Shown here: positions 8,843-31,600 of the stretch, one piece after another
Layout of the letters: every line of letters starts with the position of its first letter
How positions within the stretch are numbered: position 1 is the stretch's first letter
NCBI RefSeq assembly: GCF_000940845.1
Contig: NZ_CP010341.1
Span: 390,001 to 422,000, forward strand
DNA from: Propionibacterium freudenreichii subsp. freudenreichii
GTDB taxonomy: Bacteria > Actinomycetota > Actinomycetes > Propionibacteriales > Propionibacteriaceae
DNA length: 32,000 bases
Direction of reading: 5' to 3'
The notes under the pieces: model-generated
Told to the model about the DNA's origin: nothing
Databases searched by the model: none
What the model saw: the letters and a program-made list of their open reading frames with translations, nothing else
Translations under genes and position numbers: made by a program

Positions 8843-10269
8843 GGCTCTTCACGAACGAGGGTGTAGCGCGGGTCTGAATCCGCCGGCTTCGAGCAGCGAC
8901 CGAGCGATGTAGTGGCTGAGGTTGCGGAAGCCGAGGGCCGTGCCGCGGAGGTGTTCGAGTCGGCCGTTGATCGCTTCGGTGGGGCCGTTGCTGGTGCCGG
9001 GGCGGTCGAAGTAGCCGAGCACGTCCGAAGCGCGCTGTGTGAGGGTGCGGGCGAGTTTGCGGATCTCGACGAGCTGCTCCGGGACGCTGGCGCTGATCTT
9101 GTCGATCGTGTGCGCGAGGAAGAATCTGCCCAGGCCGCGGTCCTTGTCCCGGTAGGCGGTGATCATGTCTTGGTAGATGCCCCACGTCGCTTCGACCTCG
9201 ACGTGCCTGTCGTCGACGAACAGGGCATCTAGCCGCGCCTGCTGCTTGTCGGTGAGCAGACCGGCACCGGTGAGCAGGGTCCGTCTGGCCTGGTAGGGCG
9301 GATCGCCCTTCATGCCCCGCCGGCCGAAGACGTCGTGCTGTACCCGGCGTCGGCAGTTCTCCAGCGCGTCACCGGCGAGCCGGATCACGTGGAACGGATC
9401 CATGACCGGGGCCGCGTCGGGCAGTTCTTCGGCGGCGGCGGTCTTGAACCCGGTGAATCCGTCCATGGCGACGACCTCGATCCCCTCTCGCCAGGGCTTC
9501 GGTCTGGCGGCGAGCCAGGTCTTGAACACGGCTTTCGAGCGTCCGGCGACCATGTCCAGCAGCCGTGCCGGGCCGGTCTTGTCGCGCACCGGGGTCAGGT
9601 CGATGATCACGGTCACGTACGTGTCGCCGTGGCGGGTGTGTCGCCACACGTGCTCGTCGACGCCGATCGTGGTCACGCCCTCGAACCGCGCCGGGTCATC
9701 GATCAGCCGCCGGCGGCCCTCGGCGAGGATCGCGTCGTTCGCGGCGGACCAGGACACCCCCAGCCCTGCCGCGACACGCGTGACCGAGAGATGATCGAGG
9801 ACCAAGCCCGCCAGCCCCCACGCCAACCCACCGCGGGAGATCTTCGCCCGTACCGGCGCGGCGGCCGTGGTGTCCTGCCGCCAGACCCGCCCACACCCGC
9901 AGCATTTGTAGCGCCGGACCCGGATCAGCAGGGTCGTGGGCCGATGCCCGAACGGCTCATGCGCGAGCCGACGGATCACCGTGTCGCGCGGGGCGCCCTC
10001 GCATCCACACTCGCGGCACCACCGGTCCGGCTCCACGACACGGCACTCGATCACCGCCCGATCCGGGTCCAGACGCTGCCCGACAGCCTCCAGGCCGAGC
10101 TCGTCGAGACCGCAGAACGTGGTCAGGCAAGGTGTAGTGAAAGTAGGGTGTGACACGTCGAGGTCTTCCGGCAGATGGCGAGTGTGAGAACTTCCATCCT
10201 CAGGGAGACCTCGACCCCTACCCGGCCACCGACACGCTCAACCCGCTACACCCTCGTTCGTGAAGAGCC
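8843..10269 (-). mobile_element. ISL3-family insertion sequence, copy A (1427 bp)
   Basis: Perfect 26-bp terminal IRs GGCTCTTCACGAACGAGGGTGTAGCG at both ends. It is identical to the copy at 26349-27775 except for two positions visible in the translations. The flanks AGGCCCAC and CGTTTGGT do not match, so there is no target duplication. Confidence 0.9.
8849..10156 (-). CDS. ISL3-family transposase (435 aa)
   Basis: An N-terminal zinc-finger-like Cys pair region (CRECGCEG...CCGCGRVW) is followed by a DDE_Tnp_ISL3-type body (IGVDEHVWRH..., VVAMDGFTGFKTA, TSNGPTEAINGRLEHLRG). GTG start. Confidence 0.9.
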   Translation of the reverse strand: MSHPTFTTPCLTTFCGLDELGLEAVGQRLDPDRAVIECRVVEPDRWCRECGCEGAPRDTVIRRLAHEPFGHRPTTLLIRVRRYKCCGCGRVWRQDTTAAAPVRAKISRGGLAWGLAGLVLDHLSVTRVAAGLGVSWSAANDAILAEGRRRLIDDPARFEGVTTIGVDEHVWRHTRHGDTYVTVIIDLTPVRDKTGPARLLDMVAGRSKAVFKTWLAARPKPWREGIEVVAMDGFTGFKTAAAEELPDAAPVMDPFHVIRLAGDALENCRRRVQHDVFGRRGMKGDPPYQARRTLLTGAGLLTDKQQARLDALFVDDRHVEVEATWGIYQDMITAYRDKDRGLGRFFLAHTIDKISASVPEQLVEIRKLARTLTQRASDVLGYFDRPGTSNGPTEAINGRLEHLRGTALGFRNLSHYIARSLLEAGGFRPALHPRS

Positions 10270-10277
10270 CGTTTGGT

Positions 10278-11716
10278 GGCTCATCCCAATCGGGGGTGTA
10301 GGAGTTGGGGTCTGAAGCCGCCGGTCTCGAGCAGGCTTCGGGCGATGTAGTTGGTCAGGTTGCGGAACCCGAGTGCGGAGCCGCGCAGGTGTTCGAGCCG
10401 TCCGTTGAGCGCCTCGGTCGGCCCGTTGCTGGTGCCGGGTCGTTCGAAGTAGGCGAGCACGTCAGCGGCTCGCTTCTTCAGGGTCCGGCCCAGGGTGGTG
10501 AGCTCGGTGAGCACCTTGGGGACGCCGGCGCTGAGGTCGGTGATCAGCTTCTCCATGAGCTCGCGGCCACGTTGCCGGTCCTCGTGGCGATAGGCGGCGA
10601 TCATGCGCTGGTAGACACCCCAGGTCGCCTCGACCTCGACGTGAGCGTCATCAACGAACAGCGCGCGTAGCCTGTCGCTCTGCTTGTCGGTGAGCAGGTC
10701 CGCGCCGGTGTGCAGCGTGCGCCGCGACTTGTAGAGCGGGTCGTCCCTGAACCCACGGTGCCCGTGGATCGCGAGTTGGACCCGGCGCCGGCACCTGTCG
10801 AGGGCGTCACCGGCCAGGCGCACGACGTGGAAGGGATCCATCACCGTGACCGCGTCCGGGATCTCCTCTGCAGCGGCGGTCTTGAACCCGGTGAAGCCGT
10901 CCATCGCGACCACCTCGACCGCGTCACGGAAGGCGTCGTCGCGGTCGGCGAGCCAGGTCTTGAACGCCGCCTTCGACCGGCCCTCGACCATGTCCAGCAG
11001 CCTTGCTGGGCCGGCGCCATCGCGGACCGGGGTGAGGTCGATGATCACGGTGACGTACTTGTCGCCACGCCTGGTGTGGCGCCAGACGTGCTCATCGACG
11101 CCAATGACCTTCACGCCCTCAAACCGCGTGGGGTCGTTGATCAGCAGCCGCTTGCCTTCAGCCAGGACCGCGTTGTTGGCGGTGTCCCACGCGACCCCGA
11201 GTCCCTCGGCGACACGGGCGACGGTGAGGTGTGCGACCACGATCCCTTCCAGCGCCCACCGCAGCCCGGTGCGCGAGAGCTTCGCGCGTGGCTCCGCCGC
11301 GGCGCTGGTGTCTTGGCGCCACACGTGTCCGCAGTCGGCACAGCGGTAGCGGCGCACTACAACTTCCAGCACGGTCGGTCGCCAGCCCAGCGGCTCGTGG
11401 GCCAACCGCCGGATCACGGTGTCACGAGCAGCGCCTTCGCTGCCGCACCGTCGGCACCACTGATCTGGTTCCACCACGCGGCACGCGAGGACCGCACGAT
11501 CCGGTTCAAGTCGTTGTCCGGTCACGCTCAGACCGAGGCCGTCGAGTCGAGCGAAGGCGGTCAGGTCAGGGCGGCCGAAGCCGGCCGGCGGGGTAGCGTC
11601 GGACACGTCGAGGTCTTTCGGATGGATGGCGTAGGAACCTCCATCGTCGGGAGACCTCGACGTCTATCTGCGGACCGACGCGCCCGGCCGACCTACACCC
11701 TCATCTGAGAAGACCC
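10278..11716 (-). mobile_element. Second, divergent ISL3-family insertion sequence, element B (1439 bp)
   Basis: It is flanked by a perfect 8-bp direct repeat CGTTTGGT (10270-10277 and 11717-11724). The imperfect IRs are GGCTCATCCCAATCGGGGGTGTAGG and GGGTCTTCTCAGATGAGGGTGTAGG (18/25 identical). Confidence 0.85.
10281..11606 (-). CDS. ISL3-family transposase (441 aa), paralogous to the copy A/C enzyme
   Basis: It is collinear with the 435-aa transposase along its whole length, with the same Cys motifs plus IGVDEHVWRH and TSNGPTEALNGRLEHLRG, but has many substitutions. Confidence 0.9.
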   Translation of the reverse strand: MSDATPPAGFGRPDLTAFARLDGLGLSVTGQRLEPDRAVLACRVVEPDQWCRRCGSEGAARDTVIRRLAHEPLGWRPTVLEVVVRRYRCADCGHVWRQDTSAAAEPRAKLSRTGLRWALEGIVVAHLTVARVAEGLGVAWDTANNAVLAEGKRLLINDPTRFEGVKVIGVDEHVWRHTRRGDKYVTVIIDLTPVRDGAGPARLLDMVEGRSKAAFKTWLADRDDAFRDAVEVVAMDGFTGFKTAAAEEIPDAVTVMDPFHVVRLAGDALDRCRRRVQLAIHGHRGFRDDPLYKSRRTLHTGADLLTDKQSDRLRALFVDDAHVEVEATWGVYQRMIAAYRHEDRQRGRELMEKLITDLSAGVPKVLTELTTLGRTLKKRAADVLAYFERPGTSNGPTEALNGRLEHLRGSALGFRNLTNYIARSLLETGGFRPQLLHPRLG

Positions 11717-16709: not shown

Positions 16710-16771
16710 GGGGCGGCTGTGTGGGCGGCCAACGCGTGGGAAGCGTTGAAGTCGCGGTAGTCGCCCGCGTG

Positions 16772-18088
16772 TCAGGCGACGATCGGCGCCCAGAAGAAGC
16801 CGAGGGCCACGGCGACGGCAATCGACACCGTCCCCGGAATCACGAACGGGTGATTCAGCACAAAGCGTCCCACCCGGGTCGATCCGGTGTCGTCCATTTC
16901 GATCGCCGCGACCGTCGTGGGGTAATTCGGCAGCAGATAGTAGTTGGCGACCGCCGGATAGCAGGCGAGCATCGTCGTGGCAGTCAGGCCGATCTTGGCG
17001 GCAACCGGCATGAATGCCGCGGTCGTGGCCGCATGGGAGAACAACAGGGGTGCGCAGAAGTAGAGGATCACTGCATAGAGCCACGGCACCTGGTGCAGCA
17101 GGCTGGAACCAACTGTCGTGATCTGGGACATGTAATTGTTGAAGAAGGTGGTGCCGAGCCAGGCCACGCCCATGATGCAGATGGCGGCAGTCATGCCAGC
17201 GCGGAAAGTGGACTGTGTCGTGACCTCGGACACCGGCTTGCGTGACAAGACGCAAATGATGGCGGCGGTGGTCATCATGATCACCATGATGGCCGACGAA
17301 GAATTGATGGGCGGGTTGCTCATGATGCCGAGCTGCTTGGAACTGATGGTGGCCCAGACCACGATGACCACCAGCGAGGCAAGGAAGATGAGCAGGCTGG
17401 GGATGGCGCTCGGGGCCGGCTTGAAGTCAGGCGCTGCGGCAGCGGCGCTGTGGCTCACAAGGCCCTTTGCCTCACGTTCCTGGTAGATCGGATCGTCCTT
17501 GAGCTCCTTGCCCTGACGCGATGCGACGATGGCGCCGACGGCACACCCGATGAAGGTGGTGGGGATCGTCACGGCCAACACCTGCAGATAGCCGATTCCC
17601 ATCGGTTCCACCACGGTGGTCATTGCCACTGTGGCGGCCGAGATGGGCGATGAGGCCACCGCGACCTGGGAGGCGACCACGGCGATCGACAAGGGACGCG
17701 AGGGTCGCACATCGTGCTCCTTGGCCACGTCGACGATCACTGGAATCACCGAATAGGCCGTATGTCCGGTGCCGCACAGCAGGGACAGCATGAATGTGAC
17801 GAAAGGAGCCAGATAGGTGATCTGCTTCGGATGCCGACGAAGCAGCACCTCGGTGAGGTGCACCAGGTAGTCCATGCCGCCGGCCACCTGTAGTGCGGCA
17901 ATGGTGCAGATCACCGGAATGATGATGCCGATAACCGACCACGGGACGTCCTTGGCGGCGTCGGTATGGAGCCCTGTGGCCACCAGGACCAGCACTCCGG
18001 CACCGCCCGCCAGGCCGATGCCGACGCCTCCAAGCCGTGAGCCGAGGAAGACGAAGATGAGCAGAATCAGCAGATGCACCCAGATCAT
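16772..18088 (-). CDS. anaerobic C4-dicarboxylate transporter, DcuA/DcuB family
   Basis: This 438-aa polytopic membrane protein has an N-terminus MIWVHLLILLIFVFLGSRLGGVGIGLAGGAGVLVL. Its overall hydrophobic pattern is typical of the Dcu family. Confidence 0.8.
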   Translation of the reverse strand: MIWVHLLILLIFVFLGSRLGGVGIGLAGGAGVLVLVATGLHTDAAKDVPWSVIGIIIPVICTIAALQVAGGMDYLVHLTEVLLRRHPKQITYLAPFVTFMLSLLCGTGHTAYSVIPVIVDVAKEHDVRPSRPLSIAVVASQVAVASSPISAATVAMTTVVEPMGIGYLQVLAVTIPTTFIGCAVGAIVASRQGKELKDDPIYQEREAKGLVSHSAAAAAPDFKPAPSAIPSLLIFLASLVVIVVWATISSKQLGIMSNPPINSSSAIMVIMMTTAAIICVLSRKPVSEVTTQSTFRAGMTAAICIMGVAWLGTTFFNNYMSQITTVGSSLLHQVPWLYAVILYFCAPLLFSHAATTAAFMPVAAKIGLTATTMLACYPAVANYYLLPNYPTTVAAIEMDDTGSTRVGRFVLNHPFVIPGTVSIAVAVALGFFWAPIVA

Positions 18089-18484
18089 GATGGCTTCTTC
18101 CGGAGGGGGATGATCTGATCGCGGAGGGTCCGTTGGGTCGATTCTGAGATTACGCTGACCGTGGCCGTATTGATTTGAAATTGAGAAAGTCGATGATCAA
18201 CGTTATGTGTCCCCTCAGGGCGGTGGTTACCGAGTGCGCGGCCGGGCCTGTGGGACGACCTCCTGGATGGTGATCGCCACGTTTCCGCTCTGTGGGGCGG
18301 GGCCCGCACAGCTGCACTCCACGGCCCGGGTGTCCCGGTCCTTTGAAGTGATCCGGCCGTCAGGAGGGCTGGTCGCTCGCCCCGGGCCCCCTCTTCAGCA
18401 CCCTTGTCAACGAGCCAGTCCCGTCAAGAGGCCCGCTGTGGCTTCCTGTCCTGCCCGCGTCTGCCACCGCGTGAACAACTACAA

Positions 18485-18760
18485 CTACGCCTTAGGGCGC
18501 GGACCGAGATACATCGCAAAATCCTCAACATCTTCAGGATCGGTGATCGACCAGATCTTGTCCGCATACTCCTTGGGGATCTTCACGCCCTTGAAATGGA
18601 GGTCTGACAGGAGGAGGCCCAAGGCGTCGTAAGGCTCTCCTGCCTCCTCGAATGCCCTCACCCCCTGAGCCTCATAACCATCAAGGAGGGCGCCAAACTT
18701 CGTCGTCAGGACTTCGAGCATCTCATAGGAAGTGGTCAGCGGCACCCGTGGCTGATCCAT
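18485..18760 (-). CDS. hypothetical small acidic protein (91 aa)
   Basis: An ORF with an ATG start and a plausible acidic globular composition. I recognise no family. It sits just downstream of a decayed ORF region (18736-19170). Confidence 0.4.
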   Translation of the reverse strand: MDQPRVPLTTSYEMLEVLTTKFGALLDGYEAQGVRAFEEAGEPYDALGLLLSDLHFKGVKIPKEYADKIWSITDPEDVEDFAMYLGPRPKA

Positions 18761-19217
18761 CGAGATCGACCCCCTTCATGGCGTGACGGTGGCAATGGCA
18801 TTGAGGCCACTCTCGCCACGGCTTGCCAGCATCGGTAAGTGGCATCTTCAACAGCTTTGACCGAATCTGGCAGTTTCCAAAACAGGAGTCCCCGAGAGCC
18901 TCCGGTCCCTGCTGCCGAAGGGCGAACATGATGGCCCTCGATCAATTCGTCAGTCCAGCCTTCGGGAAGGTAGCGCTTGGCCTTCAATGCCTTGAATGAT
19001 CCCTCGTTGACGCCATACCGCTCAGTATGGGCTAGTTACTTCTGTCGGACAGCCCCGCGACGGTATTAATACCAGCTCCTGACGTCGCTGGGTAGTTCGT
19101 CTTCGGTGATCTGGCGCAGGGTGCGGGCAGCGATTGCCGGAGCTCCGGGAGGTCGCCCCTCGTCCCATTCGTGTCACACCCCCTCACTAGAGTCATCACC
19201 GACAAGGGGGAACATCC

Positions 19218-19967
19218 ATGGCGCACCACAGATCAGCCGGCTGGCTCGCGCTGGCGGCATTCGTTGCCGCCAGCGTGCTGGTGGGTTGCGACCCGCCCGC
19301 GACCACAGGCTCGCCCTCGACGTCGGCGTCGTCCTCCGTCGCAACAAGCACGCCCACGCCATCCATCACCCAGACCAGTGCGGCAGGCGAGGCGGTGGCC
19401 ACCGGCGACGCGGAGGCCGTGCGCCAGCTGCTCAACACCTTGCCGGTGAAGGGCCGTGCCCCCAAGACGGGGTATGAGCGCAGCGAGTTCGGTACCGCGT
19501 GGAAGGACGTCGACCACAACGGCTGCGACACCCGCAACGACGTCCTGGCCCGCGACCTCACCGACAAGGTCTACAAGCCCGGCACCCACGACTGCGTGGT
19601 CGCCAGCGGCGTGCTGCACGACCCCTACACGGGCACCACCATCCACTTCACACGGGGCCAGAACACCTCCACCGCAGTACAGATCGACCACATCGTCGCC
19701 CTGTCCGACGCCTGGCAGAAGGGCGCCCAACAACTCAGCGCCGACCTGCGCACCCAGCTGGCCAACGACCCGCTCAACCTGCTGGCCGTCGACGGACCCA
19801 CCAACCAGCAGAAGAGCGATGGGGACGCCGCTACCTGGCTGCCACCGAACAAGGCATTCCGTTGCACCTATGTGACCCATCAGGTGCAGGTGAAGGCGAA
19901 GTACTCCCTGTGGGTGACCCAGGCGGAGAAGGCCGCCATCACCAATCAACTCGGCACCTGCAGCTGA
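19218..19967 (+). CDS. secreted lipoprotein with a DUF1524/GmrSD-C-type HNH-like nuclease domain
   Basis: It has a signal peptide with lipobox (LAAFVAASVLVGC) and a Ser/Thr/Pro-rich linker. The domain carries FGTAWKDVDHNGCDTRNDVL, IDHIVALSDAW and LLAVDGPTNQQKSDGDAATWLPP, typical of this actinobacterial family. A Shine-Dalgarno AAGGGGGA lies upstream. Confidence 0.75.
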   Translation: MAHHRSAGWLALAAFVAASVLVGCDPPATTGSPSTSASSSVATSTPTPSITQTSAAGEAVATGDAEAVRQLLNTLPVKGRAPKTGYERSEFGTAWKDVDHNGCDTRNDVLARDLTDKVYKPGTHDCVVASGVLHDPYTGTTIHFTRGQNTSTAVQIDHIVALSDAWQKGAQQLSADLRTQLANDPLNLLAVDGPTNQQKSDGDAATWLPPNKAFRCTYVTHQVQVKAKYSLWVTQAEKAAITNQLGTCS

Positions 19968-20412: not shown

Positions 20413-21427
20413 ATGGCACGCACGATGCACGCAGTCGTCACCCGCGACGGGGGCCCGCTCGACGGGTCGAACAGCCTTGTGGACGCCACCGTCGACGCCC
20501 CGGCGGCCCCCGAGGGGCACGACCTGCTGGTGGAGGTCCACGCCACATAGGTGAACCCGGTGGATACCAAGGTGCGTTCGGGCGGCAAGCCCAGCGACGG
20601 GAAGGTCCTGGGCTGGGACGCCGCCGGCGTCGTGCAGGGCGTCGGACCTGAGGTGACGCTCTTCGCGCCCGGTGACGAGGTGTTCTACGCTGGTGACCTC
20701 ACCCGCGCGGGCTTCCGATGCGGAGTTGCAGCTCGTCGACGAGCGTATCGTGGGGCATAAGCCCCACACCCTCGACTTCGCCGCGGCCGCTGCGCTTCCC
20801 CTCACCAGCCTGACCGCCTACGAGGCCCTGTTCGACAAGCTGCGCCTCACCGCCGACAGTTCCGGGACGTTGCTCGTGCTCGGTTCGTCGGGAGGCGTCG
20901 GCTCGGTGCTCATCCAGCTCGCCAAGCAGCTCACCCACGTCACGGTGATCGCGGCCGCATCACGCGAGGAGTCCACGCAATGGGCCGTCGACCTGGGTGC
21001 CGACCACGTGCTCAACTACCATGACGATGACTTTGCCGACCAGATCGTGGAATTGGCGCCGGGCGGTGTCGATGATGTCTTCAGCGCGCATAGTCGCGGC
21101 CAGATCCCCTTGTTCATCAAGGTATTGCGCCCCTTCGGGCAAATCGTCGCCATTGACGACGAACCAGAACTTGATTACTACGCCCTGAAGAACAAGGCGC
21201 TCACGTGGCATTGGGAATTCATGTTCGCCCGCTCCATGTTCCACGCTCCGGACCTGATCCGCCAGCACGAAATCCTGGAACGCATCGCCGAACTGGTGGA
21301 TACCGGCCGCGTGCGCACCACCCTTACCCGTGCCCTGCAACCCTTTGATGCCGCCCAGCTCCGCGAAGCGCACCGGGTGGTCGAGAGTGGGCACGCCCTG
21401 GGCAAGATCGTGGTGGCCCGCAGCTGA
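20413..21427 (+). pseudogene. zinc-binding alcohol dehydrogenase / quinone oxidoreductase family gene, inactivated by a nonsense codon and a frameshift
   Basis: The three track ORFs join into one MDR-family protein. An in-frame TAG (20548-20550) interrupts the conserved ...[15 protein letters not shown]. One extra T at 20713/20714 shifts the frame inside ...YAGDLTRAG|[17 protein letters not shown]. The remainder is intact (LPLTSLTAYEALFDKL, GSSGGVGSVLIQLAK, WHWEFMFARSMF, GKIVVA). Confidence 0.8.
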
Positions 21428-21682
21428 CACCGGCGTCCCGGGTGTGATCGGGGCCCTCCTGCAGCCAGAGATGGCGGTTTTCTCGGCGGCAGCAGTAGGC
21501 CAATCCGGGTAAGGTTCCGCAGCGGTGCGCCGGTGGTGGCGTCCGGGCGCAGGTCCGAGGTGGTGTCCAGGCTGGGCGGGCGTGCCGCTATGTTGCTTGG
21601 ACGCGTTGTCATGACGCGCCGCCCACCCAGCGCCAACCGGCCACACCTGCCGTGAACTGATCGCCGAACAGGAGACACCCCC

Positions 21683-22198
21683 GTGTCCGACACCCCCCGT
21701 CCGTCACATGATCCCCGCCCGAAGGTGACCCTGCGCACCGTGCTGATCGCGATCGGCGTCGTGCTGGTGGTGCTCATCGCCGGCGCCATCGTGGTGACCA
21801 CCCGCAACGCGTCCACGCCCGACACGAATCCCTCGCCGGTGGCGCCGGCCCCCGTGTCGACCACATCGAGTGGGGCGGTCGCCAGCCGTGCGGCGATGGT
21901 GGAGGAGGAGAAGCCCGACTCCGAGCACGTCATTGAGTTCCGGGCGACGACGAATCGTCCCGGTTTCGTGGTCTACCGCGTCACCGACGGTGAAGGAACG
22001 CGCGCCGATATGACGCAGAGCTGGTCACACGAGGAGCGCGTGAAGAACCTGGACGGCGTCTTCCTCAAGGTCAAGAGCCTGTCGGGAGGCGACGCTGACG
22101 CCGAGGTGAGCTGCCAGATCCTGGTGGACGGACAGGTGTGGGGCTCGGATTCCGGGTCGGGACGCGGCGCATTCAGCAAGTGCCTGTTGCGCGGCTGA
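21683..22198 (+). CDS. MmpS-like small membrane protein
   Basis: A single N-terminal TM (LRTVLIAIGVVLVVLIAGAIVV) is followed by a ~100-aa domain, IEFRATTN..VVYRV...SCQILVDGQVW....SKC, resembling the MmpS pattern with its two Cys. GTG start with AGGAG 9 nt upstream. Confidence 0.5.
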   Translation: MSDTPRPSHDPRPKVTLRTVLIAIGVVLVVLIAGAIVVTTRNASTPDTNPSPVAPAPVSTTSSGAVASRAAMVEEEKPDSEHVIEFRATTNRPGFVVYRVTDGEGTRADMTQSWSHEERVKNLDGVFLKVKSLSGGDADAEVSCQILVDGQVWGSDSGSGRGAFSKCLLRG

Positions 22199-23340: not shown

Positions 23341-26300
23341 GCCTCAATGAAGGGCCTCTCCAGAAGGAGGGGCAATGGTTTGATCCATACCCGGAATGAT
23401 CGCTCTTTCGCTCCTCAATGAAGGGCCCCTCCAGAAGGAGGGGCAATCCGCCCGAACTCTAGGTTTCTGTGCGCACACCATGACGCCTCAATGAAGGGCC
23501 CCTCCAGAAGGAGAGGCAATACGGCAACCGTCCCTCGCCGAGCCGGGGCCTTGGTGCGGCCTCAATGAAGGGCCCCTCCAGAAGGAGGGGCAATTGGGCA
23601 AGACGACTCTGTCCACGATTGAGGGTGACGGCCTCAATGAAGGGCCCCTCCAGAAGGAGGGGCAATTTGCGATCATCTGGTCCACGTCGAGCCCGGTGCC
23701 GCCTCAATGAAGGGCCCCTCCAGAAGGAGGGGCAATAGAACGTCAGCCCCATACCCTCAAGCACCTGACGGAGCCTCAATGAAGGGCCCCTCCAGAAGGA
23801 GGGGCAATATCGTCTGCTTGGCAGTCTCCGGGATACCCCCAAAGATGCCTCAATGAAGGGCCCCTCCAGAAGGAGGGGCAATCCTACGGTTTGACGATGA
23901 GCAAGGGTGAGATCGAGCCTCAATGAAGGGCCCCTCCAGAAGGAGGGGCAATGTGGGGCCCTTCTTGATTTGTCCTTGTGGTACACAGTGCCTCAATGAA
24001 GGGCCCCTCCAGAAGGAGGGGCAATCTTATCGAACGGCGGAAACCAATCGGAACGGCCGCCGCCTCAATGAAGGGCCCCTCCAGAGAGAGGGGCAATTGG
24101 ACCTGCCCGCCTGGACCCTGCCCGCCGGCCACTTGCCTCAATGAAGGGCCCCTCCAGAAGGAGGGGCAATGCGAGGGCCAACCAAACGAACTGCCAACAA
24201 CAAGGAGTGCCTCAATGAAGGGCCCCTCCAGAAGGAGGGGCAATTTGAGTCGCGAAAAGCCTTTAACGAGAGCCACCCCTGCGGCCTCAATGAAGGGCCC
24301 CTCCAGAAGGAGGGGCAATCCCGAGCAGCGTCCCGAGCGGCGTTCAGAGCGGCGCCGCCTCAATGAAGGGCCCCTCCAGAAGGAGGGGCAATCTCCGCCG
24401 AGGTCGGTGGATTTTACAACGAGTGGGTGCCTCAATGAAGGGCCCCTCCAGAAGGAGGGGCAATGGTATGGTCGTCCACGGCGCTAGAGGGTAAGACCGG
24501 TAAGCCTCAATGAAGGGCCCCTCCAGAAGGAGGGGCAATCCGGACCAGCCAGATCGCTGGTCGCCGACGCGAAGCCTCAATGAAGGGCCCCTCCAGAAGG
24601 AGGGGCAATGCCCTCGGCACTGCTGGCGTGTGATCTGATGCGCACGCCTCAATGAAGGGCCCCTCCAGAAGGAGGGGCAATCACCTTGTAATCAAGTCTG
24701 TCAAGTGAGCTGGTAGGGCCTCAATGAAGGGCCCCTCCAGAAGAAGGGGCAATATCACCCCTTCAGCAGGAAGCCAGTGGACCTTACCGGCCTCAATGAA
24801 GGGCCCCTCCAGAAGGAGGGGCAATCCTGTGCAGTCGGTTTCCACCGTCGATGTCGACAGGCCTCAATGAAGGGCCCCTCCAGAAGGAGGGGCAATGGTC
24901 CGGTTCGTCGGGGTCTTCGAGCAGGGTGACGCGGGTGCCTCAATGAAGGGCCCCTCCAGAAGGAGGGGCAATGCCACGAAGGGTGAGTCGGTGACGGCGC
25001 GAGAATAGGCCTCAATGAAGGGCCCCTCCAGAAGGAGGGGCAATATTCGCCAGGTGAGCGGGAAGGGTGCAAATAGCTAGCCTCAATGAAGGGCCCCTCC
25101 AGAAGGAGGGGCAATTGTGCGACGCCCAGCCGGCGCCAACGATATTGTGGTCGCCTCAATGAAGGGCCCCTCCAGAAGGAGGGGCAATTTCAACGACCGG
25201 CCCGACGCCTTGAGCTCCTTGACGAAGCCTCAATGAAGGGCCCCTCCAGAAGGAGGGGCAATGGTGAGCTCTGACTGGATTGTGTTCATGTGGAGACCGC
25301 CTCAATGAAGGGCCCCTCCAGAAGGAGGGGCAATAGGAGGCGTCCGCCATCCCTTTTCCAGCCAGGCATCGGGCCTCAATGAAGGGCCCCTCCAGAAGGA
25401 GGGGCAATCTGGAGGCGCTGCGAGGTGCCGCCAGACAAGAGCCTCAATGAAGGGCCCCTCCAGAAGGAGGGGCAATTGCTTGCTCAGAGCTTGTCTCTTT
25501 TGGTCGTTTTGCGCCTCAATGAAGGGCCCCTCCAGAAGGAGGGGCAATTGCTTGCTCAGAGCTTGTCTCTTTTGGTCGTTTTGCGCCTCAATGAAGGGCC
25601 CCTCCAGAAGGAGGGGCAATTTGCTGTGCAATGGCAGTCACTCCCGGTGGTCTTGCCTGCCTCAATGAAGGGCCCCTCCAGAAGGAGGGGCAATTCTCCG
25701 CCACCAAGGCCAAGGAGACCCTGCCGCCCGACGTGCCTCAATGAAGGGCCCCTCCAGAAGGAGGGGCAATTTGTTTCTCCCTAAAACTTTAGTGTATATC
25801 CGACTTCTGCCTCAATGAAGGGCCCCTCCAGAAGGAGGGGCAATCAGAAGTCTGTGCCGTCCGGGCGAACAGACTTAAAGCCTCAATGAAGGGCCCCTCC
25901 AGAAGGAGGGGCAATAATAGGTGCGGTTCATGCCGCGACCGCGACGCTCGGGCCTCAATGAAGGGCCCCTCCAGAAGGAGGGGCAATCAGTCGATCCGTC
26001 TGTCGAAGGACTCGAACGGCCAGCCTCAATGAAGGGCCCCTCCAGAAGGAGGGGCAATGGGTTTACGCGAGGGTGAGCATCAATGCCTACCCGCCTCAAT
26101 GAAGGGCCCCTCCAGAAGGAGGGGCAATGGGATGGTTGGAGATGGTCCGCCCGATCACATCGACGCCTCAATGAAGGGCCCCTCCAGAAGGAGGGGCAAT
26201 GATTACGGCTTTTCCGTTCAGGAATTAGCGGACGGTGCCTCAATGAAGGGCCCCTCCAGGAGGAGGGGCAATCTCCTGCTCGTGGAGCCTGTAGGTGCCA

Positions 26301-26346
26301 TGTGGACCCCGCCTCAATGAAGGGCCCCTCCAGAAGGAGGGGCAAT
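23341..26346 (-). CRISPR. CRISPR array, leader-distal block: 42 repeats of 36 bp and 41 complete spacers
   Basis: The repeat is GCCTCAATGAAGGGCCCCTCCAGAAGGAGGGGCAAT as written on the + strand, with an internal hairpin CCCCTCC-AGAA-GGAGGGG. I located all 42 copies by hand. Spacers are 32-40 bp. Variant repeats occur at 23341 (T at 23357), 23412 (first base T), 23485 (A at 23514), 24062 (GA at 24086-24087), 24718 (A at 24744) and 26237 (G at 26260). Confidence 0.97.
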
Positions 26347-26348
26347 CT

Positions 26349-27775
26349 GGCTCTTCACGAACGAGGGTGTAGCGGGTTGAGCGTGTCGGTGGCCGGGTAG
26401 GGGTCGAGGTCTCCCTGAGGATGGAAGTTCTCACACTCGCCATCTGCCGGAAGACCTCGACGTGTCACACCCTACTTTCACTACACCTTGCCTGACCACG
26501 TTCTGCGGTCTCGACGAGCTCGGCCTGGAGGCTGTCGGGCAGCGTCTGGACCCGGATCGGGCGGTGATCGAGTGCCGTGTCGTGGAGCCGGACCGGTGGT
26601 GCCGCGAGTGTGGATGCGAGGGCGCCCCGCGCGACACGGTGATCCGTCGGCTCGCGCATGAGCCGTTCGGGCATCGGCCCACGACCCTGCTGATCCGGGT
26701 CCGGCGCTACAAATGCTGCGGGTGTGGGCGGGTCTGGCGGCAGGACACCACGGCCGCCGCGCCGGTACGGGCGAAGATCTCCCGCGGTGGGTTGGCGTGG
26801 GGGCTGGCGGGCTTGGTCCTCGATCATCTCTCGGTCACGCGTGTCGCGGCAGGGCTGGGGGTGTCCTGGTCCGCCGCGAACGACGCGATCCTCGCCGAGG
26901 GCCGCCGGCGGCTGATCGATGACCCGGCGCGGTTCGAGGGCGTGACCACGATCGGCGTCGACGAGCACGTGTGGCGACACACCCGCCACGGCGACACGTA
27001 CGTGACCGTGATCATCGACCTGACCCCGGTGCGCGACAAGACCGGCCCGGCACGGCTGCTGGACATGGTCGCCGGACGCTCGAAAGCCGTGTTCAAGACC
27101 TGGCTCGCCGCCAGACCGAAGCCCTGGCGAGAGGGGATCGAGGTCGTCGCCATGGACGGATTCACCGGGTTCAAGACCGCCGCCGCCGAAGAACTGCCCG
27201 ACGCGGCCCCGGTCATGGATCCGTTCCACGTGATCCGGCTCGCCGGTGACGCGCTGGAGAACTGCCGACGCCGGGTACAGCACGACGTCTTCGGCCGGCG
27301 GGGCATGAAGGGCGATCCGCTCTACCAGGCCAGACGGACCCTGCTCACCGGTGCCGGTCTGCTCACCGACAAGCAGCAGGCGCGGCTAGATGCCCTGTTC
27401 GCCGACGACAGGCACGTCGAGGTCGAAGCGACGTGGGGCATCTACCAAGACATGATCACCGCCTACCGGGACAAGGACCGCGGCCTGGGCAGATTCTTCC
27501 TCGCGCACACGATCGACAAGATCAGCGCCAGCGTCCCGGAGCAGCTCGTCGAGATCCGCAAACTCGCCCGCACCCTCACACAGCGCGCTTCGGACGTGCT
27601 CGGCTACTTCGACCGCCCCGGCACCAGCAACGGCCCCACCGAAGCGATCAACGGCCGACTCGAACACCTCCGCGGCACGGCCCTCGGCTTCCGCAACCTC
27701 AGCCACTACATCGCTCGGTCGCTGCTCGAAGCCGGCGGATTCAGACCCGCGCTACACCCTCGTTCGTGAAGAGCC
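26349..27775 (+). mobile_element. ISL3-family insertion sequence, copy C (1427 bp), inserted in the CRISPR array
   Basis: It has the same 26-bp perfect IRs as copy A. It is flanked by an 8-bp direct repeat GGCAATCT (26341-26348 and 27776-27783), which is the last 6 nt of a repeat plus the first 2 nt of the spacer. Confidence 0.95.
26462..27769 (+). CDS. ISL3-family transposase (435 aa), 2 aa different from the copy A enzyme
   Basis: The translation is identical to 8849-10156 except GDPLYQ versus GDPPYQ and LFADDRH versus LFVDDRH. Confidence 0.95.
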   Translation: MSHPTFTTPCLTTFCGLDELGLEAVGQRLDPDRAVIECRVVEPDRWCRECGCEGAPRDTVIRRLAHEPFGHRPTTLLIRVRRYKCCGCGRVWRQDTTAAAPVRAKISRGGLAWGLAGLVLDHLSVTRVAAGLGVSWSAANDAILAEGRRRLIDDPARFEGVTTIGVDEHVWRHTRHGDTYVTVIIDLTPVRDKTGPARLLDMVAGRSKAVFKTWLAARPKPWREGIEVVAMDGFTGFKTAAAEELPDAAPVMDPFHVIRLAGDALENCRRRVQHDVFGRRGMKGDPLYQARRTLLTGAGLLTDKQQARLDALFADDRHVEVEATWGIYQDMITAYRDKDRGLGRFFLAHTIDKISASVPEQLVEIRKLARTLTQRASDVLGYFDRPGTSNGPTEAINGRLEHLRGTALGFRNLSHYIARSLLEAGGFRPALHPRS

Positions 27776-27818
27776 GGCAATCTCGGGTCGCCGCGCAGGT
27801 CGCTGCTCGGGACGCTGC

Positions 27819-29521
27819 GCCTCAATGAAGGGCCCCTCCAGAAGGAGGGGCAATTGGTTTCCTGTGAGCGTGTTGTAGGCGCTCTGATAGCCGCCTCAAT
27901 GAAGGGCCCCTCCAGAAGGAGGGGCAATACCGAACATGCCCTCAGCGCCATAACGCGACTTCGCGCCTCAATGAAGGGCCCCTCCAGAAGGAGGGGCAAT
28001 TCTGGCTGTGGCACCTATGCGAAGGATGCCTTGGGCCTCAATGAAGGGCCCCTCCAGAAGGAGGGGCAATATTTTGCTCACCCCCTTTCATCAAAAAACT
28101 GAATGCCTCAATGAAGGGCCCCTCCAGAAGGAGGGGCAATAATCCTTTCTCCCCTTTCACGCAGTTCGATGAATGGCCTCAATGAAGGGCCCCTCCAGAA
28201 GGAGGGGCAATTGGTGGAGCTTCCCCCTTGACATCGCGAATACTATGGCCGCCTCAATGAAGGGCCCCTCCAGAAGGAGGGGCAATTCGCAAGCTATCCA
28301 GGCGAACGCCACCATGACGTCCCGGCCTCAATGAAGGGCCCCTCCAGAAGGAGGGGCAATATGAGGACCTTCTCGAAGCTCGGGTTGATCAGCAAGCCTC
28401 AATGAAGGGCCCCTCCAGAAGGAGGGGCAATTTGACCTCGTCGGCACCGAACTTCGTCGCCACCCAGTTGCCTCAATGAAGGGCCCCTCCAGAAGGAGGG
28501 GCAATGATGGAACGAACAATGCTCGAGCGAGACCTGGAGTTGCCTCAATGAAGGGCCCCTCCAGAAGGAGGGGCAATGAACCGTGTGGCGACACATCGAG
28601 GAGCACGGTGACGGGCCTCAATGAAGGGCCCCTCCAGAAGGAGGGGCAATCGGCCGCGAGGGCTTCGAGTATCAGGCGAGCTTCGGTGAGCCTCAATGAA
28701 GGGCCCCTCCAGAAGGAGGGGCAATTCTAGCCAGACGATCACGATCTGTGGCGGCATCGTCGCCTCAATGAAGGGCCCCTCCAGAAGGAGGGGCAATCCC
28801 ATCACCTCCGACACGTAGGCCGTCCATGACTTGCCTCAATGAAGGGCCCCTCCAGAAGGAGGGGCAATGTCTCAGGGGCGCAGATGATGACTCGTCGTCT
28901 TCATTGCCTCAATGAAGGGCCCCTCCAGAAGGAGGGGCAATTGTGGGCCAGCGTGGTGGTCAGCGACTTGACCGACGCGCCTCAATGAAGGGCCCCTCCA
29001 GAAGGAGGGGCAATAATCTGAAGCCATAGAGAGTCGCATGCCGCCCTCAGAGCCTCAATGAAGGGCCCCTCCAGAAGGAGGGGCAATGATCCACATGGTA
29101 GACCGGCGACTCATGATGCCCATCCGCCTCAATGAAGGGCCCCTCCAGAAGGAGGGGCAATCGGGGTGTCGCCTGGGATGCCGCTCGATGTTCCGGCCTC
29201 AATGAAGGGCCCCTCCAGAAGGAGGGGCAATCCGCATCTATGACACCCAGTTCGCCACGGAATACATGCCTCAATGAAGGGCCCCTCCAGAAGGAGGGGC
29301 AATCAGTTCGATCATTACATCGAAGGTCTTATCGAAAAGCCTCAATGAAGGGCCCCTCCAGAAGGAGGGGCAATGGTTGCGTTACTCGTGCGTCCTGGCA
29401 CTTGGCATTGGCCTCAATGAAGGGCCCCTCCAGAAGGAGGGGCAATTTGAGGACCAGAGGCGTTCCCATACTAGTCGTAGCTTCAGCCTCAATGAAGGGC
29501 CCCTCCAGAAGGAGGGGCAAT
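27819..29521 (-). CRISPR. CRISPR array, leader-proximal block: 24 perfect repeats and 23 complete spacers, plus the remainder of the interrupted spacer at 27784-27818
   Basis: The 36-bp repeat is the same, and all 24 copies are identical to the consensus by eye. Spacers are 34-39 bp. The last repeat ends at 29521, 178 bp from the cas2 stop. Confidence 0.97.
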
Positions 29522-29699
29522 GGCGGGCGTGGGAACAGGGCTCCCACTAGGCATTATACCGGCCGCCTGCGAGCGGTGCTGAAGAAGGATGGCTCGCGCG
29601 TGGAGGATTGATGACCCCTTCAGCGCAATCTGCTTGTGACAAGGGGAAACATCACGCGAGCGGCTCCGCGTGACAACCGGGCCGCAGAGCCGCTGGTCG
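29522..29699 (-). promoter_or_regulatory. putative CRISPR leader
   Basis: This 178-bp non-coding stretch lies between the cas2 stop (29700) and the first perfect repeat. Repeat degeneration at the opposite end of the array supports this end as the leader. No promoter motifs were identified. Confidence 0.6.
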
Positions 29700-30002
29700 T
29701 CAGATGATGATGCTGCGTCCGCCGCTCTGGTACCTCTGACCGCCCAACCAGGTGATGCGTTGGGCGTCTGCCGACGTGGACATGCCCAGGTCGCAGATCA
29801 CCACCGAGTCCTCATCAATATCCATCGCGTCGGTGAGATCGTGGCGTAGCACCAGCAGGTGTGACGGCGGACAATCAACCATGAATACGCTGTACTGCAC
29901 ACGCTCCCCGTAGCCCTTCAGTACCGTGGCCAACCTGGTGCGACGACGGTCATCGGGCACGTCGTAGGCGATCAGAAAGCAATGGGAATCTCGTCGGCTC
30001 AT
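29700..30002 (-). CDS. cas2: CRISPR-associated endoribonuclease Cas2
   Basis: The 100-aa protein has the typical N-terminus FLIAYDVPDDRRRTRLATVLKGYGERVQYSVFMVD. Its ATG overlaps the cas4-cas1 stop (ATGA at 29999-30002). Confidence 0.9.
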   Translation of the reverse strand: MSRRDSHCFLIAYDVPDDRRRTRLATVLKGYGERVQYSVFMVDCPPSHLLVLRHDLTDAMDIDEDSVVICDLGMSTSADAQRITWLGGQRYQSGGRSIII

Positions 30003-31600
30003 CTGACCGTCATTCCTATATACTCAGATCGCGTGCCGTCAATGAATCCCAATAACAAGCGTGCCTGGATCTCCATCGTCCTTCGCCAGGTGGCCGGGTA
30101 GCCGAACGTTGGATGCTTGATGTCGGTTGTCACCCGGCGTTCGTATGCCGAGGTGAGTGCGGCGATCCCTGCCCGGGTGAGGCGGACGTCCCCCAGAGTG
30201 TGGGAGAACATATCCGCGGTGAGCGTCTGGTTATTGATGCAGGTGATCACCGCGGAATCCGCCACAGGTGCGCGGAACTCCTCCATGAGGTCCAAGGCCA
30301 ATGCAGGCTTGTTCCGGCTGGGCGAGTGCAGAAACCCGCCATGCGGGTCCAAACCACATGCAGCGATCGCACGAACACAGTCTGCGAGCAGCATTCCATA
30401 GGCGTAATTCAGCGCAGCATTGAGCGGGTCGATCGCGCCCCGACCATGCCGGCCGGGCCATTCGTCGAGGAAGTCCTGCGCCGAGTCCGACTTGAGTATC
30501 AACGGGAACTCAGAAAAGTACGCCTTCGCCGCCCGTCCTTCGACGGCGAAGAGTTCAGGCAGGCTCTCGACCCTCATGGCTACCCGACTGAGCTCGCGGA
30601 TCTCCTGGGGAGCGGTGGCTGCCGCGGCGTTCCTGCGCAGGAGGGTCGCTTGGTTGATCAACTTCGCGCGCACAATGGCCCGCGCGACCGGCAGACAGCC
30701 CACCTCCGAGAGGGCCTGCTGATGCATCCGCGCCTGCCCATTGGGGGCCGCAGCTCCGGTGGCCCAGCCCACCACGCGGCCGCGCCCGCTGCACCAGACG
30801 ATCGTCAATCGACGCCACAGAATCTCCCGAATGAGCGCGCCAGAAACATCCACATTGCCGTGGAGCACAAGCCCCTGCACACGTTCGAGTGGAACGGCGG
30901 CGAGTTGCTCACCCTGGCGTGTGATGCGTATCTGCCGGTCGCGCATCGATAGCCTCGCGCCGGGTGTGACGGCGTGCAGAATCTCCCCGTGGGGATCGGC
31001 CACCGAGATGCGGCGCTTGAGCTCCCCTCCGTTGTGGACCTGCTCGTCAGGCAAGCAAATCGTGGCGTGTGAGCACCCATTGCAGCGGCTGTCGTCGAGC
31101 AGCGGCGGGGGCGCAGAGTCTGCCTCCACCACCTTGCGTGTTTCTGTCACCCAATCGCGGCACGCCTCGCGGGCCTCAGCACCCAGGGGAACCGGAACAT
31201 CCTTGTGATGATTCACAAAGTGCACCACCCCGCTCGTGACGTGATGACCCATCTCCTCCAGGCACATGGACTGCAACCCGACCTGCACGGCCTGGGCAGG
31301 GGTGATCTCTGCTTTCCTGCGCACCGGGGTGGACTTGTATTCGACCACCGACAGGCCATCGGACGAGACTTCCACCACGTCACAGCGGCCCGTGATGCCC
31401 AGCGATTCACTGTGCACCGACACTGCGCGCCGCACCTCGGGCCGTGACTCAGCAGGCTGGTCCACGCGCCGGTGTGCGAGCGTGCCGGCCGTCATTGCAT
31501 AGCTATCGGCCTGCTCGCCCTGGGCCTCCAACCAAGCCCGCCGCGGACAGAACACGGTGTGGGCCACCAGGCTGATCGGCAGCTTGTCATCACCAGACAT
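29999..31600 (-). CDS. cas4-cas1: Cas4-Cas1 fusion protein (adaptation module)
   Basis: The N-terminal ~190 aa have Cas4/RecB-like features: an N-terminal Cys (VFCPRRAWLE), CDVVEVSSDGLSVVEYK, and the Cys cluster CNGCSHATIC. The C-terminal ~330 aa are Cas1-like (NAALNYAYGMLLADCVRAIAACGLDPHGGFLH, ALDLMEEFRAPVADS). Confidence 0.9.
   Translation of the reverse strand: MSGDDKLPISLVAHTVFCPRRAWLEAQGEQADSYAMTAGTLAHRRVDQPAESRPEVRRAVSVHSESLGITGRCDVVEVSSDGLSVVEYKSTPVRRKAEITPAQAVQVGLQSMCLEEMGHHVTSGVVHFVNHHKDVPVPLGAEAREACRDWVTETRKVVEADSAPPPLLDDSRCNGCSHATICLPDEQVHNGGELKRRISVADPHGEILHAVTPGARLSMRDRQIRITRQGEQLAAVPLERVQGLVLHGNVDVSGALIREILWRRLTIVWCSGRGRVVGWATGAAAPNGQARMHQQALSEVGCLPVARAIVRAKLINQATLLRRNAAAATAPQEIRELSRVAMRVESLPELFAVEGRAAKAYFSEFPLILKSDSAQDFLDEWPGRHGRGAIDPLNAALNYAYGMLLADCVRAIAACGLDPHGGFLHSPSRNKPALALDLMEEFRAPVADSAVITCINNQTLTADMFSHTLGDVRLTRAGIAALTSAYERRVTTDIKHPTFGYPATWRRTMEIQARLLLGFIDGTRSEYIGMTVR

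What the first reader, a model, noticed from the sequence alone, without database searches (positions are those of the whole stretch)
26341..27783. ISL3 insertion exactly at a repeat/spacer junction splits the CRISPR array 24 + 42
GGCAATCT occurs immediately before the left IR (26341-26348) and immediately after the right IR (27776-27783). It consists of the last 6 nt of repeat 42 plus the first 2 nt of the spacer, which is the hallmark 8-bp ISL3 duplication. Removing the IS and one copy of the 8-mer restores a normal 37-bp spacer. This is therefore a genuine, probably recent transposition and not an assembly join.

The transposase gene is antisense to array transcription. Pre-crRNA from the leader would have to traverse 1.4 kb of IS to express the 42 older spacers. 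All six variant repeats lie in that distal block.
Basis: seen in the sequence. Interest (0 to 1): 0.65.

Follow-up and report, generated by a model that had tools for sequence, protein, structure and literature searches.

The report
Insertion sequence splitting a CRISPR array
A 1.4-kb ISL3-family jumping gene sits between the 24th and 25th repeats of the type I-G CRISPR array of Propionibacterium freudenreichii DSM 20271; the insertion is real, but the split array was already reported in 2017 and is an ordinary kind of event.

Summary
There are 66 repeats of 36 nt (23341-29521). A 1427-bp element (26349-27775) splits them 42 + 24. The element has perfect 26-nt terminal inverted repeats and one ISL3-family transposase gene, and GGCAATCT flanks it on both sides. 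Removing it together with one 8-mer restores a 37-nt spacer.

cas4/cas1, cas2 and a conserved leader lie to the right on the minus strand. The transposase is therefore antisense to the array, and the 42-repeat block is the distal, older part.

The window maps base-for-base onto CP010341 (P. freudenreichii DSM 20271T = JS16), positions 390,001-422,000. Deptula et al. [quoted passage not shown]

New here:
- the exact junction and the 8-bp duplication;
- a second, inverted copy of the IS 16 kb away in the window;
- three further ISL3-family insertion events in the arrays of two of the other strains examined, one of them at the same repeat/spacer register.

Whether the insertion lowers distal crRNA levels is untested. 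No uninterrupted allele was found. Low interest: already known.

The parts
23341..26346 (-). Distal (older) block of the CRISPR array: 42 repeats and 41 spacers. It includes the degenerate trailer repeats (23341-23520) and a duplicated spacer (25477-25512 = 25549-25584).
   Evidence: repeat map; trailer spacers 63-65 are shared with other strains; 100% matches to phages Anatole, B3, B22, E1 and E6.
26341..26348 (.). Left copy of the 8-bp target-site duplication GGCAATCT (last 6 nt of the repeat plus 2 nt of spacer, + strand view).
26349..27775 (+). ISL3-family insertion sequence, 1427 bp. Terminal inverted repeats are at 26349-26374 and 27750-27775 (26/26 complementary).
   Evidence: I1; 100% identical over 1427 bp to copies in L003, L009 and L010, and 99.86% to window 8843-10269.
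26462..27769 (+). Transposase gene, 435 aa, antisense to array transcription.
   Evidence: PF01610, E = 1e-55. NF033550, 356 bits against a cut-off of 180; the exact protein is on record in 58 blocks of the public collection.
27776..27783 (.). Right copy of the target-site duplication GGCAATCT. Its GGCAAT is a 6-nt orphan repeat fragment.
27782..27818 (-). Spacer 24 counted from the leader. It is complete (37 nt) but is followed only by ATTGCC and then the IS, so it has lost the downstream repeat needed for normal 3' processing.
   Evidence: The processing consequence is inferred.
27819..29521 (-). Leader-proximal block of the array: 24 identical repeats and 23 spacers.
   Evidence: matches to phages B22, E6, G4, PFR1 and PFR2.
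29522..29699 (-). Leader, 178 nt, with a perfect -10 hexamer TATAAT at 29558->29553, 31 nt upstream of the first repeat.
   Evidence: 0-2 differences among 10 strains. TATAAT position.
29700..31600 (-). cas2 (29700-30002) and the cas4/cas1 fusion (29999-31600) of a type I-G system. The rest of the cas operon runs off the right end of the window.
   Evidence: related loci carry cas7g/csb1, csb2, cas3, a 333-aa gene, cas4/cas1 and cas2.
8843..10269 (-). Second copy of the same IS (2 nt different), inverted relative to the array copy and 16 kb from it. It has no target duplication of its own.
10278..11716 (-). A different ISL3-family element (72% identical), flanked by ACCAAACG on both sides. It is separated from the IS copy at 8843-10269 only by that 8-mer.

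Best explanation
**What happened.** An autonomous ISL3-family insertion sequence transposed into the type I-G CRISPR array of Propionibacterium freudenreichii DSM 20271. Its DDE transposase made an 8-bp staggered cut at the sequence GGCAATCT. On the transcribed strand this reads AGATTGCC: the last 2 nt of spacer 24 plus the first 6 nt of repeat 25. Repair duplicated those 8 bp.

**What was lost.** No repeat or spacer was lost. Spacer 24 keeps its upstream repeat, but downstream it now has only ATTGCC followed by the IS. Repeat 25 and everything distal to it are intact, but lie 1435 bp further from the leader promoter.

**Age.** The insertion is evolutionarily recent, because the copy is identical to copies elsewhere.

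**Inferred consequences (not shown).**
- crRNA 24 is no longer matured normally.
- The 41 distal spacers depend on read-through across 1.4 kb of untranslated RNA antisense to the transposase gene, so their crRNAs are probably reduced but not necessarily abolished. I put about 0.6 on a clear drop.
- The insertion was tolerated because arrays are non-essential. It was probably also favoured by the family's taste for AT-rich 8-mers in a GC-rich genome.
For: **Shown**
- IS anatomy: inverted repeats; transposase family.
- The 8-bp duplication and the orphan GGCAAT.
- Restored 37-nt spacer.
- An 8-bp duplication is the rule for this element and its relatives. The same IS in L006 is flanked by TCATATCC. 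Related ISL3 elements are flanked by ACCAAACG (window 10278-11716), GGTTAAGT (L020) and TCATTGAG (L015).
- The array copy is 100% identical to three copies in other assemblies and differs by 2 nt from the second copy in the window.
- Orientation: cas genes, conserved leader with TATAAT, shared trailer spacers.
- The window coordinates plus 390,000 equal all four CRISPR coordinates given for strain JS16 / CP010341. [quoted passage not shown]
- ISL3 transposase genes change position within cultures of this species.
- All six duplications seen have 4 or fewer G+C out of 8. Only 31% of non-array 8-mers and 42% of array 8-mers in the window are that AT-rich.
Against: - No relative with the uninterrupted spacer 23-24-25 arrangement was found. 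There were 0 metagenome hits. None of 14 other arrays shares spacers 1-43.
- Six of the eight duplicated bases are repeat sequence. The duplication therefore discriminates less than a random 8-mer against a history of two insertions plus recombination.
- No terminator-like site was found on the minus strand inside the IS, so there is no positive evidence for polarity.
- The type strain (ATCC 6207) resists phages Anatole, B3 and E1, which only distal spacers match. It also resists Doucette, which Table 4 does not list among the phages its spacers match, so this says nothing either way.
Confidence: 0.9

Rival explanations
1. IS-mediated deletion. Two copies of the IS inserted in the same orientation and register at two different repeat/spacer junctions. 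Homologous recombination between them then deleted the intervening spacers. One IS remained, and its flanks only look like a target duplication.
For: - GGCAAT recurs at every repeat end, so only the 2 spacer bases (CT) need to match by chance. Five of 65 spacers begin with CT.
- Another ISL3 event at the same register exists in L020.
- Several copies of this IS have mismatched flanks, which shows that IS-IS recombination happens in this species (L001, L002, L010 and window 8843-10269).
- IS6110-mediated deletions of exactly this kind are documented in the M. tuberculosis array.
Against: - It needs three events instead of one, plus a coincidence of about 1 in 13.
- The restored spacer has a normal length.
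- No relative shows extra spacers at this position, though none covers this part of the array.
Confidence: 0.05
2. Assembly artefact. The IS was placed in the array by mis-joining through one of the identical IS copies in the genome.
For: The genome holds several near-identical copies, one of them only 16 kb away. In short-read assemblies, contigs break at this IS (L003, L004, L007 and L008 start at the IS end).
Against: - A mis-join would not create an 8-bp duplication together with an orphan 6-nt repeat fragment and a spacer that restores to 37 nt.
- Both flanks are the same array in the same orientation.
- The source genome is listed at 190x coverage in the PacBio-based study that reports the split.
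Confidence: 0.02
3. The insertion has no functional effect on the array. The distal block is expressed as before, either by unimpeded read-through or from an outward promoter in the left end of the IS, so only spacer 24 is affected.
For: - No terminator-like hairpin followed by a T-run lies on the minus strand within the IS.
- A weak -10-like TAGGGT lies on the minus strand at 26474->26469, 125 nt from the left end of the IS.
- Distal spacers still match circulating phages perfectly.
Against: - No consensus promoter was found, and the TAGGGT is a single weak hexamer.
- From general knowledge, 1.4 kb of untranslated RNA converging on the transposase promoter is a typical substrate for Rho-dependent termination and transcriptional interference.
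- No boxA-like antitermination motif is present in the leader.
Confidence: 0.35

Closest known systems
The same locus as published: P. freudenreichii JS16 / DSM 20271T (CP010341), Deptula et al. 2017, BMC Genomics 18:790 (PMC5644110), Table 4
   Same: - Identical coordinates after adding 390,000 (413,342-416,347 with 41 spacers; 417,820-419,522 with 23 spacers).
- The same 36-nt repeat.
[quoted passage not shown]
   Different: In the passages of the paper's main text that I retrieved by keyword search, I found no mention of the IS family of this copy, the inverted repeats, the 8-bp duplication, the exact junction or the fate of spacer 24. I did not read the full text, the figures or the supplementary files.
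IS6110 in the direct-repeat (CRISPR, type III-A) locus of Mycobacterium tuberculosis (for example PMC7708916)
   Same: An IS sits inside an array at or within a repeat, with a short target duplication, and splits the array. Further insertions occur at various positions of the locus. Recombination between copies deletes spacer blocks.
   Different: - By its name and 1355-bp length it is a different element (the family assignment, IS3, is from memory).
- The duplication is 3 bp, not 8 bp.
- The M. tuberculosis array no longer acquires spacers. Here the leader-end spacers differ between strains, and both blocks match current phages.
Other split type I-G arrays in P. freudenreichii (JS4, JS20, JS21 and JS25 lineage; assembly GCA_053839625.1)
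   Same: ISL3-family elements in the same array type.
- L020 (= JS25) has one inside a spacer, with duplication GGTTAAGT.
- L020 also has a composite of two ISL3 elements plus 1 kb of foreign DNA at repeat + 2 nt, with flanks GGCAATGT / GCAATGT. This is the same register as in the window.
- L015 has one inside the repeat, with duplication TCATTGAG.
   Different: - These are different ISL3 elements (70-78% identical to the window's IS) at different positions and in either orientation.
- They are independent events in other lineages, which share no leader-side spacers with the window.
ISL3 family of insertion sequences (ISfinder family; NCBIfam NF033550)
   Same: A single DDE transposase of about 435 aa, a length of 1.4 kb, terminal inverted repeats beginning GGCTCTT, and an 8-bp direct target duplication.
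   Different: Nothing. It is an ordinary member. The same left end occurs in Acidipropionibacterium jensenii and A. thoenii genomes.

Membership tests
ISL3 family insertion sequence | Transposase with the DDE_Tnp_ISL3 catalytic domain | tested here: met
   PF01610, E = 9.9e-56, profile positions 1-239 of 240. NF033550, 355.9 bits against a cut-off of 180, profile positions 1-369 of 370.
ISL3 family insertion sequence | Terminal inverted repeats of roughly 15-40 bp bounding a 1.2-2.3 kb element with a single transposase ORF (family description recalled from ISfinder) | tested here: met
   26/26-nt perfect inverted repeats at 26349-26374 and 27750-27775, a 1427-bp element and one 435-aa ORF.
ISL3 family insertion sequence | 8-bp direct duplication of the target | tested here: met
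   GGCAATCT on both sides. 8-bp duplications also flank an independent copy (L006, TCATATCC) and three related elements.
ISL3 family insertion sequence | Transposition activity (mobility) | not testable with these tools
   Indirect only. Identical copies sit in different genomic contexts. Published within-culture differences in ISL3 transposase positions exist for this species.
Type I-G (formerly I-U) CRISPR-Cas | Cas4-Cas1 fusion protein and Cas2 next to the array | tested here: met
   Window 29999-31600 carries PF01930 + PF01867. Its best NCBIfam match is Cas4g/Cas1g NF049935 at 465.7 bits, below that model's strict cut-off of 560. Cas2 matches TIGR01573.
Type I-G (formerly I-U) CRISPR-Cas | Csb1/Cas7g, Csb2 (Cas5-Cas6 fusion) and Cas3 effector genes | tested here: inconclusive
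   These genes lie outside the window. In strains with identical Cas2 and Cas4/Cas1 the operon holds TIGR02570 Cas7g (41.8 bits, cut-off 38), TIGR02165 Csb2 (441.6 bits) and a Cas3-like 871-aa protein. The gene order is atypical according to PMC5644110.
Type I-G (formerly I-U) CRISPR-Cas | Active interference and crRNA processing | not testable with these tools
   Only spacer-phage matches are available. [quoted passage not shown]

The most novel reading that the evidence does not exclude
The ISL3 elements of dairy propionibacteria may have a sequence preference, roughly a G/C-flanked A/T-rich core such as GGCAATNN or CTCAATGA. That would make the two AT-rich edges of the I-G repeat a recurrent landing site. 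IS insertion would then be a systematic driver of array truncation and turnover in this species, or an incidental counter-defence by mobile elements, rather than a one-off accident. Four ISL3 events were seen in 15 arrays. Two share the exact repeat + 2 nt register and a third lies in the other AT-rich patch of the repeat.
Probability: 0.2. Interest if true: 0.35.

Novelty: already known. Interest (0 to 1): 0.15.

Why it matters
The finding has little general significance. IS insertions in CRISPR arrays are a familiar mode of array decay; IS6110 in M. tuberculosis is the classic case. This particular split is already tabulated for the type strain.

Its practical value is local:
- DSM 20271 is the reference strain of an industrial cheese and vitamin B12 bacterium, and its phage resistance matters.
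- The strain offers a ready-made natural experiment. According to the published table, phages Anatole, B3 and E1 are matched only by spacers distal to the IS, while G4, PFR1 and PFR2 are matched only by proximal ones.
- Measuring crRNAs or interference on both sides would show how polar a 1.4-kb antisense IS is in a type I-G array.
- The inverted second IS copy 16 kb away also predicts a possible inversion that would detach the distal block from its leader.

Tried and rejected
1. **Search for an uninterrupted allele.**
   - An exact scan of metagenome contigs for spacer 24 gave 0 hits.
   - Look-ups of two array-embedded ORFs (28328-28696 and 27706-28014) found nothing on record.
   - The 14 other arrays fetched through Cas2 and Cas4/Cas1 share only trailer-side spacers with the window. 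JS12 shares spacers 44, 48-51, 54-56, 60 and 63-65; the others share only 63-65.
2. **Scan for more same-register insertions.** A scan of metagenome contigs for 'repeat end + 0-30 nt + ISL3 inverted-repeat consensus' gave 0 hits.
3. **Copy census in the host genome.** A scan of the species-representative genomes for the left end of the IS returned only Acidipropionibacterium jensenii, A. thoenii and Propionibacterium MAG contigs, all cut at the IS. This gave no copy census and no additional duplications.
4. **Look-up of the second copy's transposase variant.** It gave only two IS-length contigs.
5. **Terminators and promoters.** The consensus scan over 25900-29800 found nothing on the minus strand. 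No boxA-like motif is in the leader. The C-versus-G skew of the antisense IS RNA is mixed and not informative.
6. **Rejected idea: the six variant repeats are linked to the IS.** The numbers fit chance plus trailer decay.
7. **Rejected idea: host-range data can tell whether the distal spacers work.** ATCC 6207 and every other ATCC strain tested resist all seven phages. That includes Doucette, which Table 4 does not list among the phages matched by this strain's spacers.

Full report
**What is in the sequence**

A fuzzy search with the 36-nt unit GCCTCAATGAAGGGCCCCTCCAGAAGGAGGGGCAAT finds 66 copies on the + strand between 23341 and 29521, and none on the other strand. Spacers are 32-40 nt (median 36), with one exception. 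Between repeat 42 (26311-26346) and repeat 43 (27819-27854) there are 1472 nt.

That gap contains a 1427-bp element at 26349-27775. It has perfect 26-nt terminal inverted repeats, GGCTCTTCACGAACGAGGGTGTAGCG (I1). It has one long ORF, 26462-27769 on the + strand, 435 aa. The protein matches Pfam DDE_Tnp_ISL3 over the whole profile (E = 1e-55). It also matches the NCBIfam equivalog 'ISL3 family transposase' at 356 bits against a cut-off of 180.

GGCAATCT lies immediately outside both inverted repeats, at 26341-26348 and 27776-27783. The 8-mer occurs six times in the window against 0.9 expected. Five occurrences are the end of a complete repeat followed by a spacer that starts with CT. The sixth, at 27776, is the only one with no repeat in front of it and abuts the right end of the IS.

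Removing the IS and one 8-mer gives a 37-nt spacer.

**Polarity**

- cas2 (29700-30002) and a cas4/cas1 fusion (29999-31600) are on the minus strand just right of repeat 66.
- The 178 nt between cas2 and the first repeat differ by 0-2 nt among ten strains. They hold a perfect TATAAT 31 nt upstream of the first repeat.
- The three left-most repeats are degenerate.
- The left-most spacers (63-65 counted from the leader) are the ones shared with other strains, while leader-side spacers are strain-specific.

The array is therefore read on the minus strand from right to left. The transposase gene is antisense to it, the 24-repeat block is proximal and the 42-repeat block is distal.

On the transcribed strand the duplicated 8-mer is AGATTGCC, which is the last 2 nt of spacer 24 plus the first 6 nt of repeat 25. 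Spacer 24 is complete and keeps its upstream repeat, but it is followed only by ATTGCC and then the IS. Repeat 25 is complete on the far side. No repeat or spacer was lost.

**Where the window comes from, and what is already published**

Look-ups of the exact Cas2 and Cas4/Cas1 proteins return complete genomes of Propionibacterium freudenreichii. Deptula et al. 2017 (PMC5644110) give the same repeat consensus. Their Table 4 lists, for strain JS16 (= DSM 20271T, CP010341), Crispr_1 at 413,342-416,347 (41 spacers) and Crispr_2 at 417,820-419,522 (23 spacers).

All four numbers equal my block coordinates plus 390,000. The window is therefore CP010341:390,001-422,000.

[quoted passage not shown] The same table lists JS4, JS20, JS21 and JS25 as arrays split by a transposase gene and an 'integron'.

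The split array is thus already known. In the passages of the paper's main text that I retrieved, I did not find the junction, the duplication or the IS family of this copy.

The system is now called type I-G (PMC12755874). Profile matches to Cas4g/Cas1g, Csb1/Cas7g and Csb2 agree with that.

**Is it a genuine, recent, simple insertion?**

- The same IS occurs elsewhere with an 8-bp duplication (L006, TCATATCC).
- Three related ISL3 elements also have 8-bp duplications: ACCAAACG at window 10278-11716, GGTTAAGT in L020 and TCATTGAG in L015.
- The array copy is 100% identical over all 1427 bp to copies in three other assemblies. It differs by 2 nt from a second copy in the window at 8843-10269.
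- Many other copies have mismatched flanks (L001, L002, L010 and the window's second copy). This shows IS-IS recombination in the species, so the matching flanks here argue that this copy has not been rearranged since it landed.
- The published assembly is listed at 190x in the PacBio-based study.

Against this, six of the eight duplicated bases are repeat sequence. A history of two same-register insertions followed by recombination and loss of the intervening spacers would mimic the duplication whenever two spacers share their first two bases. Five of 65 spacers start with CT.

I could not find a relative that carries spacers 23-25 to settle this. I put that rival at about 5% and misassembly at about 2%.

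**Consequences (inferred, not shown)**

The pre-crRNA must cross 1435 extra nucleotides, antisense to the transposase gene, to reach the 41 distal spacers.

- I found no hairpin-plus-T terminator and no consensus promoter on the minus strand inside the IS.
- There is only a weak TAGGGT at 26474->26469.
- There is no boxA-like motif in the leader.

From general knowledge of Rho-dependent termination on long untranslated RNA, and of convergent transcription, I expect lower distal crRNA levels. I give that about 0.6.

The stakes are real. Both blocks have perfect matches to P. freudenreichii phages. The proximal block matches B22, E6, G4, PFR1 and PFR2. The distal block matches Anatole, B3, B22, E1 and E6 through a spacer that is present twice.

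Published host-range data do not help. ATCC 6207 resists all seven phages tested, as do all the other ATCC strains. (That ATCC 6207 is the same type strain is from my own knowledge.) The resisted phages include Doucette, which Table 4 does not list among the phages matched by this strain's spacers.

**The variant repeats**

All six variant repeats are in the distal block. Three of them are the terminal trailer repeats. The probability of all six falling among 42 of 66 repeats is 0.058, and for the three internal ones it is 0.23. This is ordinary ageing of old repeats and is unrelated to the IS.

**Beyond the finding**

Among 15 distinct arrays of this type (the window plus 14 loci), I saw four ISL3-family events:

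1. The window.
2. L015, inside the repeat, with duplication TCATTGAG.
3. L020 (= JS25), inside a spacer.
4. L020 again, a composite of two ISL3 elements and 1 kb of foreign DNA, with flanks GGCAATGT / GCAATGT. This is the same repeat + 2 nt register as in the window.

All six ISL3 duplications seen have 4 or fewer G+C out of 8. Only 31% of non-array 8-mers in the window are that AT-rich. The two AT-rich patches of the repeat, CTCAATGA and GGCAAT, are exactly where three of the four events lie.

This hints at a target preference that makes the repeat edges attractive. With so few events it remains a hint, at about 0.2.

A different mobile element also sits in the loop of a repeat in L028 and L036. 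It has terminal inverted repeats of at least 40 bp and carries an EcsC-family gene. An IS30-like element separates cas4/cas1 from cas2 in L017. The array region is evidently a tolerated sink for mobile DNA, as the M. tuberculosis direct-repeat locus is for IS6110.

**Verdict**

This is a real, cleanly documented ISL3 insertion. It belongs to a well-known class of events and was already reported for this very strain. Interest is low (0.15) and novelty is 'already known'.

Noticed in passing
window 25477-25512 and 25549-25584: Two adjacent spacers are identical (TGCTTGCTCAGAGCTTGTCTCTTTTGGTCGTTTTGC), that is, a duplicated repeat-spacer unit. This is the distal spacer that matches phages Anatole, B3, B22, E1 and E6 at 100%.
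   Followed up: partly
window 8843-10269 (-) and 10278-11716 (-): A second copy of the same IS (2 nt different) sits 8 bp (ACCAAACG) from a 72%-identical ISL3 element that carries ACCAAACG on both sides. The second copy has no duplication of its own. The same tandem pair occurs in L005 with different outer flanks. The two near-identical copies in the window are inverted and 16 kb apart, so recombination between them could invert the segment that holds the distal 42 repeats.
   Followed up: partly
L020 (JS25, LT618783) 13435-14860 and 15398-19299; L015 (GCA_053839625.1) 11308-12722: Other strains carry independent ISL3-family insertions in the same array type. One is in a spacer (GGTTAAGT) and one is inside the repeat (TCATTGAG). 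One is a two-IS composite with a 1-kb HsdM-fragment cargo at the same repeat + 2 nt register as in the window.
   Followed up: yes
L036 13277-15111 and L028 13483-15317: An identical 1835-nt gap between two recognised repeats contains an element of about 1.75 kb. The element has terminal inverted repeats of at least 40 bp (TGGGCCTACCCTGGTTTTTCGGACACC...) and carries an EcsC-family gene. It is inserted in the loop of a CRISPR repeat and flanked by CTGG. No transposase gene was called inside it.
   Followed up: partly
L017 (GCA_027945155.1) 8863-9897: An IS30-like transposase gene (HTH_38 + rve) lies between cas4/cas1 and cas2. cas4/cas1 is shortened there to 505 aa.
   Followed up: no
window 15666-16709 (+): An IS481-family transposase gene (NF033577, 345 bits) lies between the DUF3427 helicase gene and the DcuA/DcuB transporter gene.
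   Followed up: no
window 12273-15437 (-) and 19218-19967 (+): A 1054-aa PLD-nuclease / ResIII helicase / DUF3427 protein lies beside the array, and so does a 249-aa ORF. In related loci the protein at the corresponding position matches GmrSD_C. Together with the array they look like a defence island, in line with the published 'genomic island' call for JS16.
   Followed up: no
window 20413-21421 and 21427-21683: The zinc-dependent alcohol dehydrogenase gene, 351 aa in other strains, is frameshifted here (two tblastn pieces in different frames). The 408-aa ATP-grasp gene that follows it in all other strains has no match in the window.
   Followed up: partly
window 27832-27861 (+): On the + strand, the first repeat hairpin after the IS is followed by a T-rich spacer start and scores as an intrinsic-terminator-like site. 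It lies about 60 nt downstream of the transposase stop codon. It might end transposase read-out transcripts, or it may be coincidence.
   Followed up: no
L022-L024, L026 (Acidipropionibacterium jensenii DSM 20535, A. thoenii DSM 20276): The first 37 nt of the IS occur exactly in genomes of another genus, which suggests horizontal spread of this element among dairy propionibacteria.
   Followed up: no
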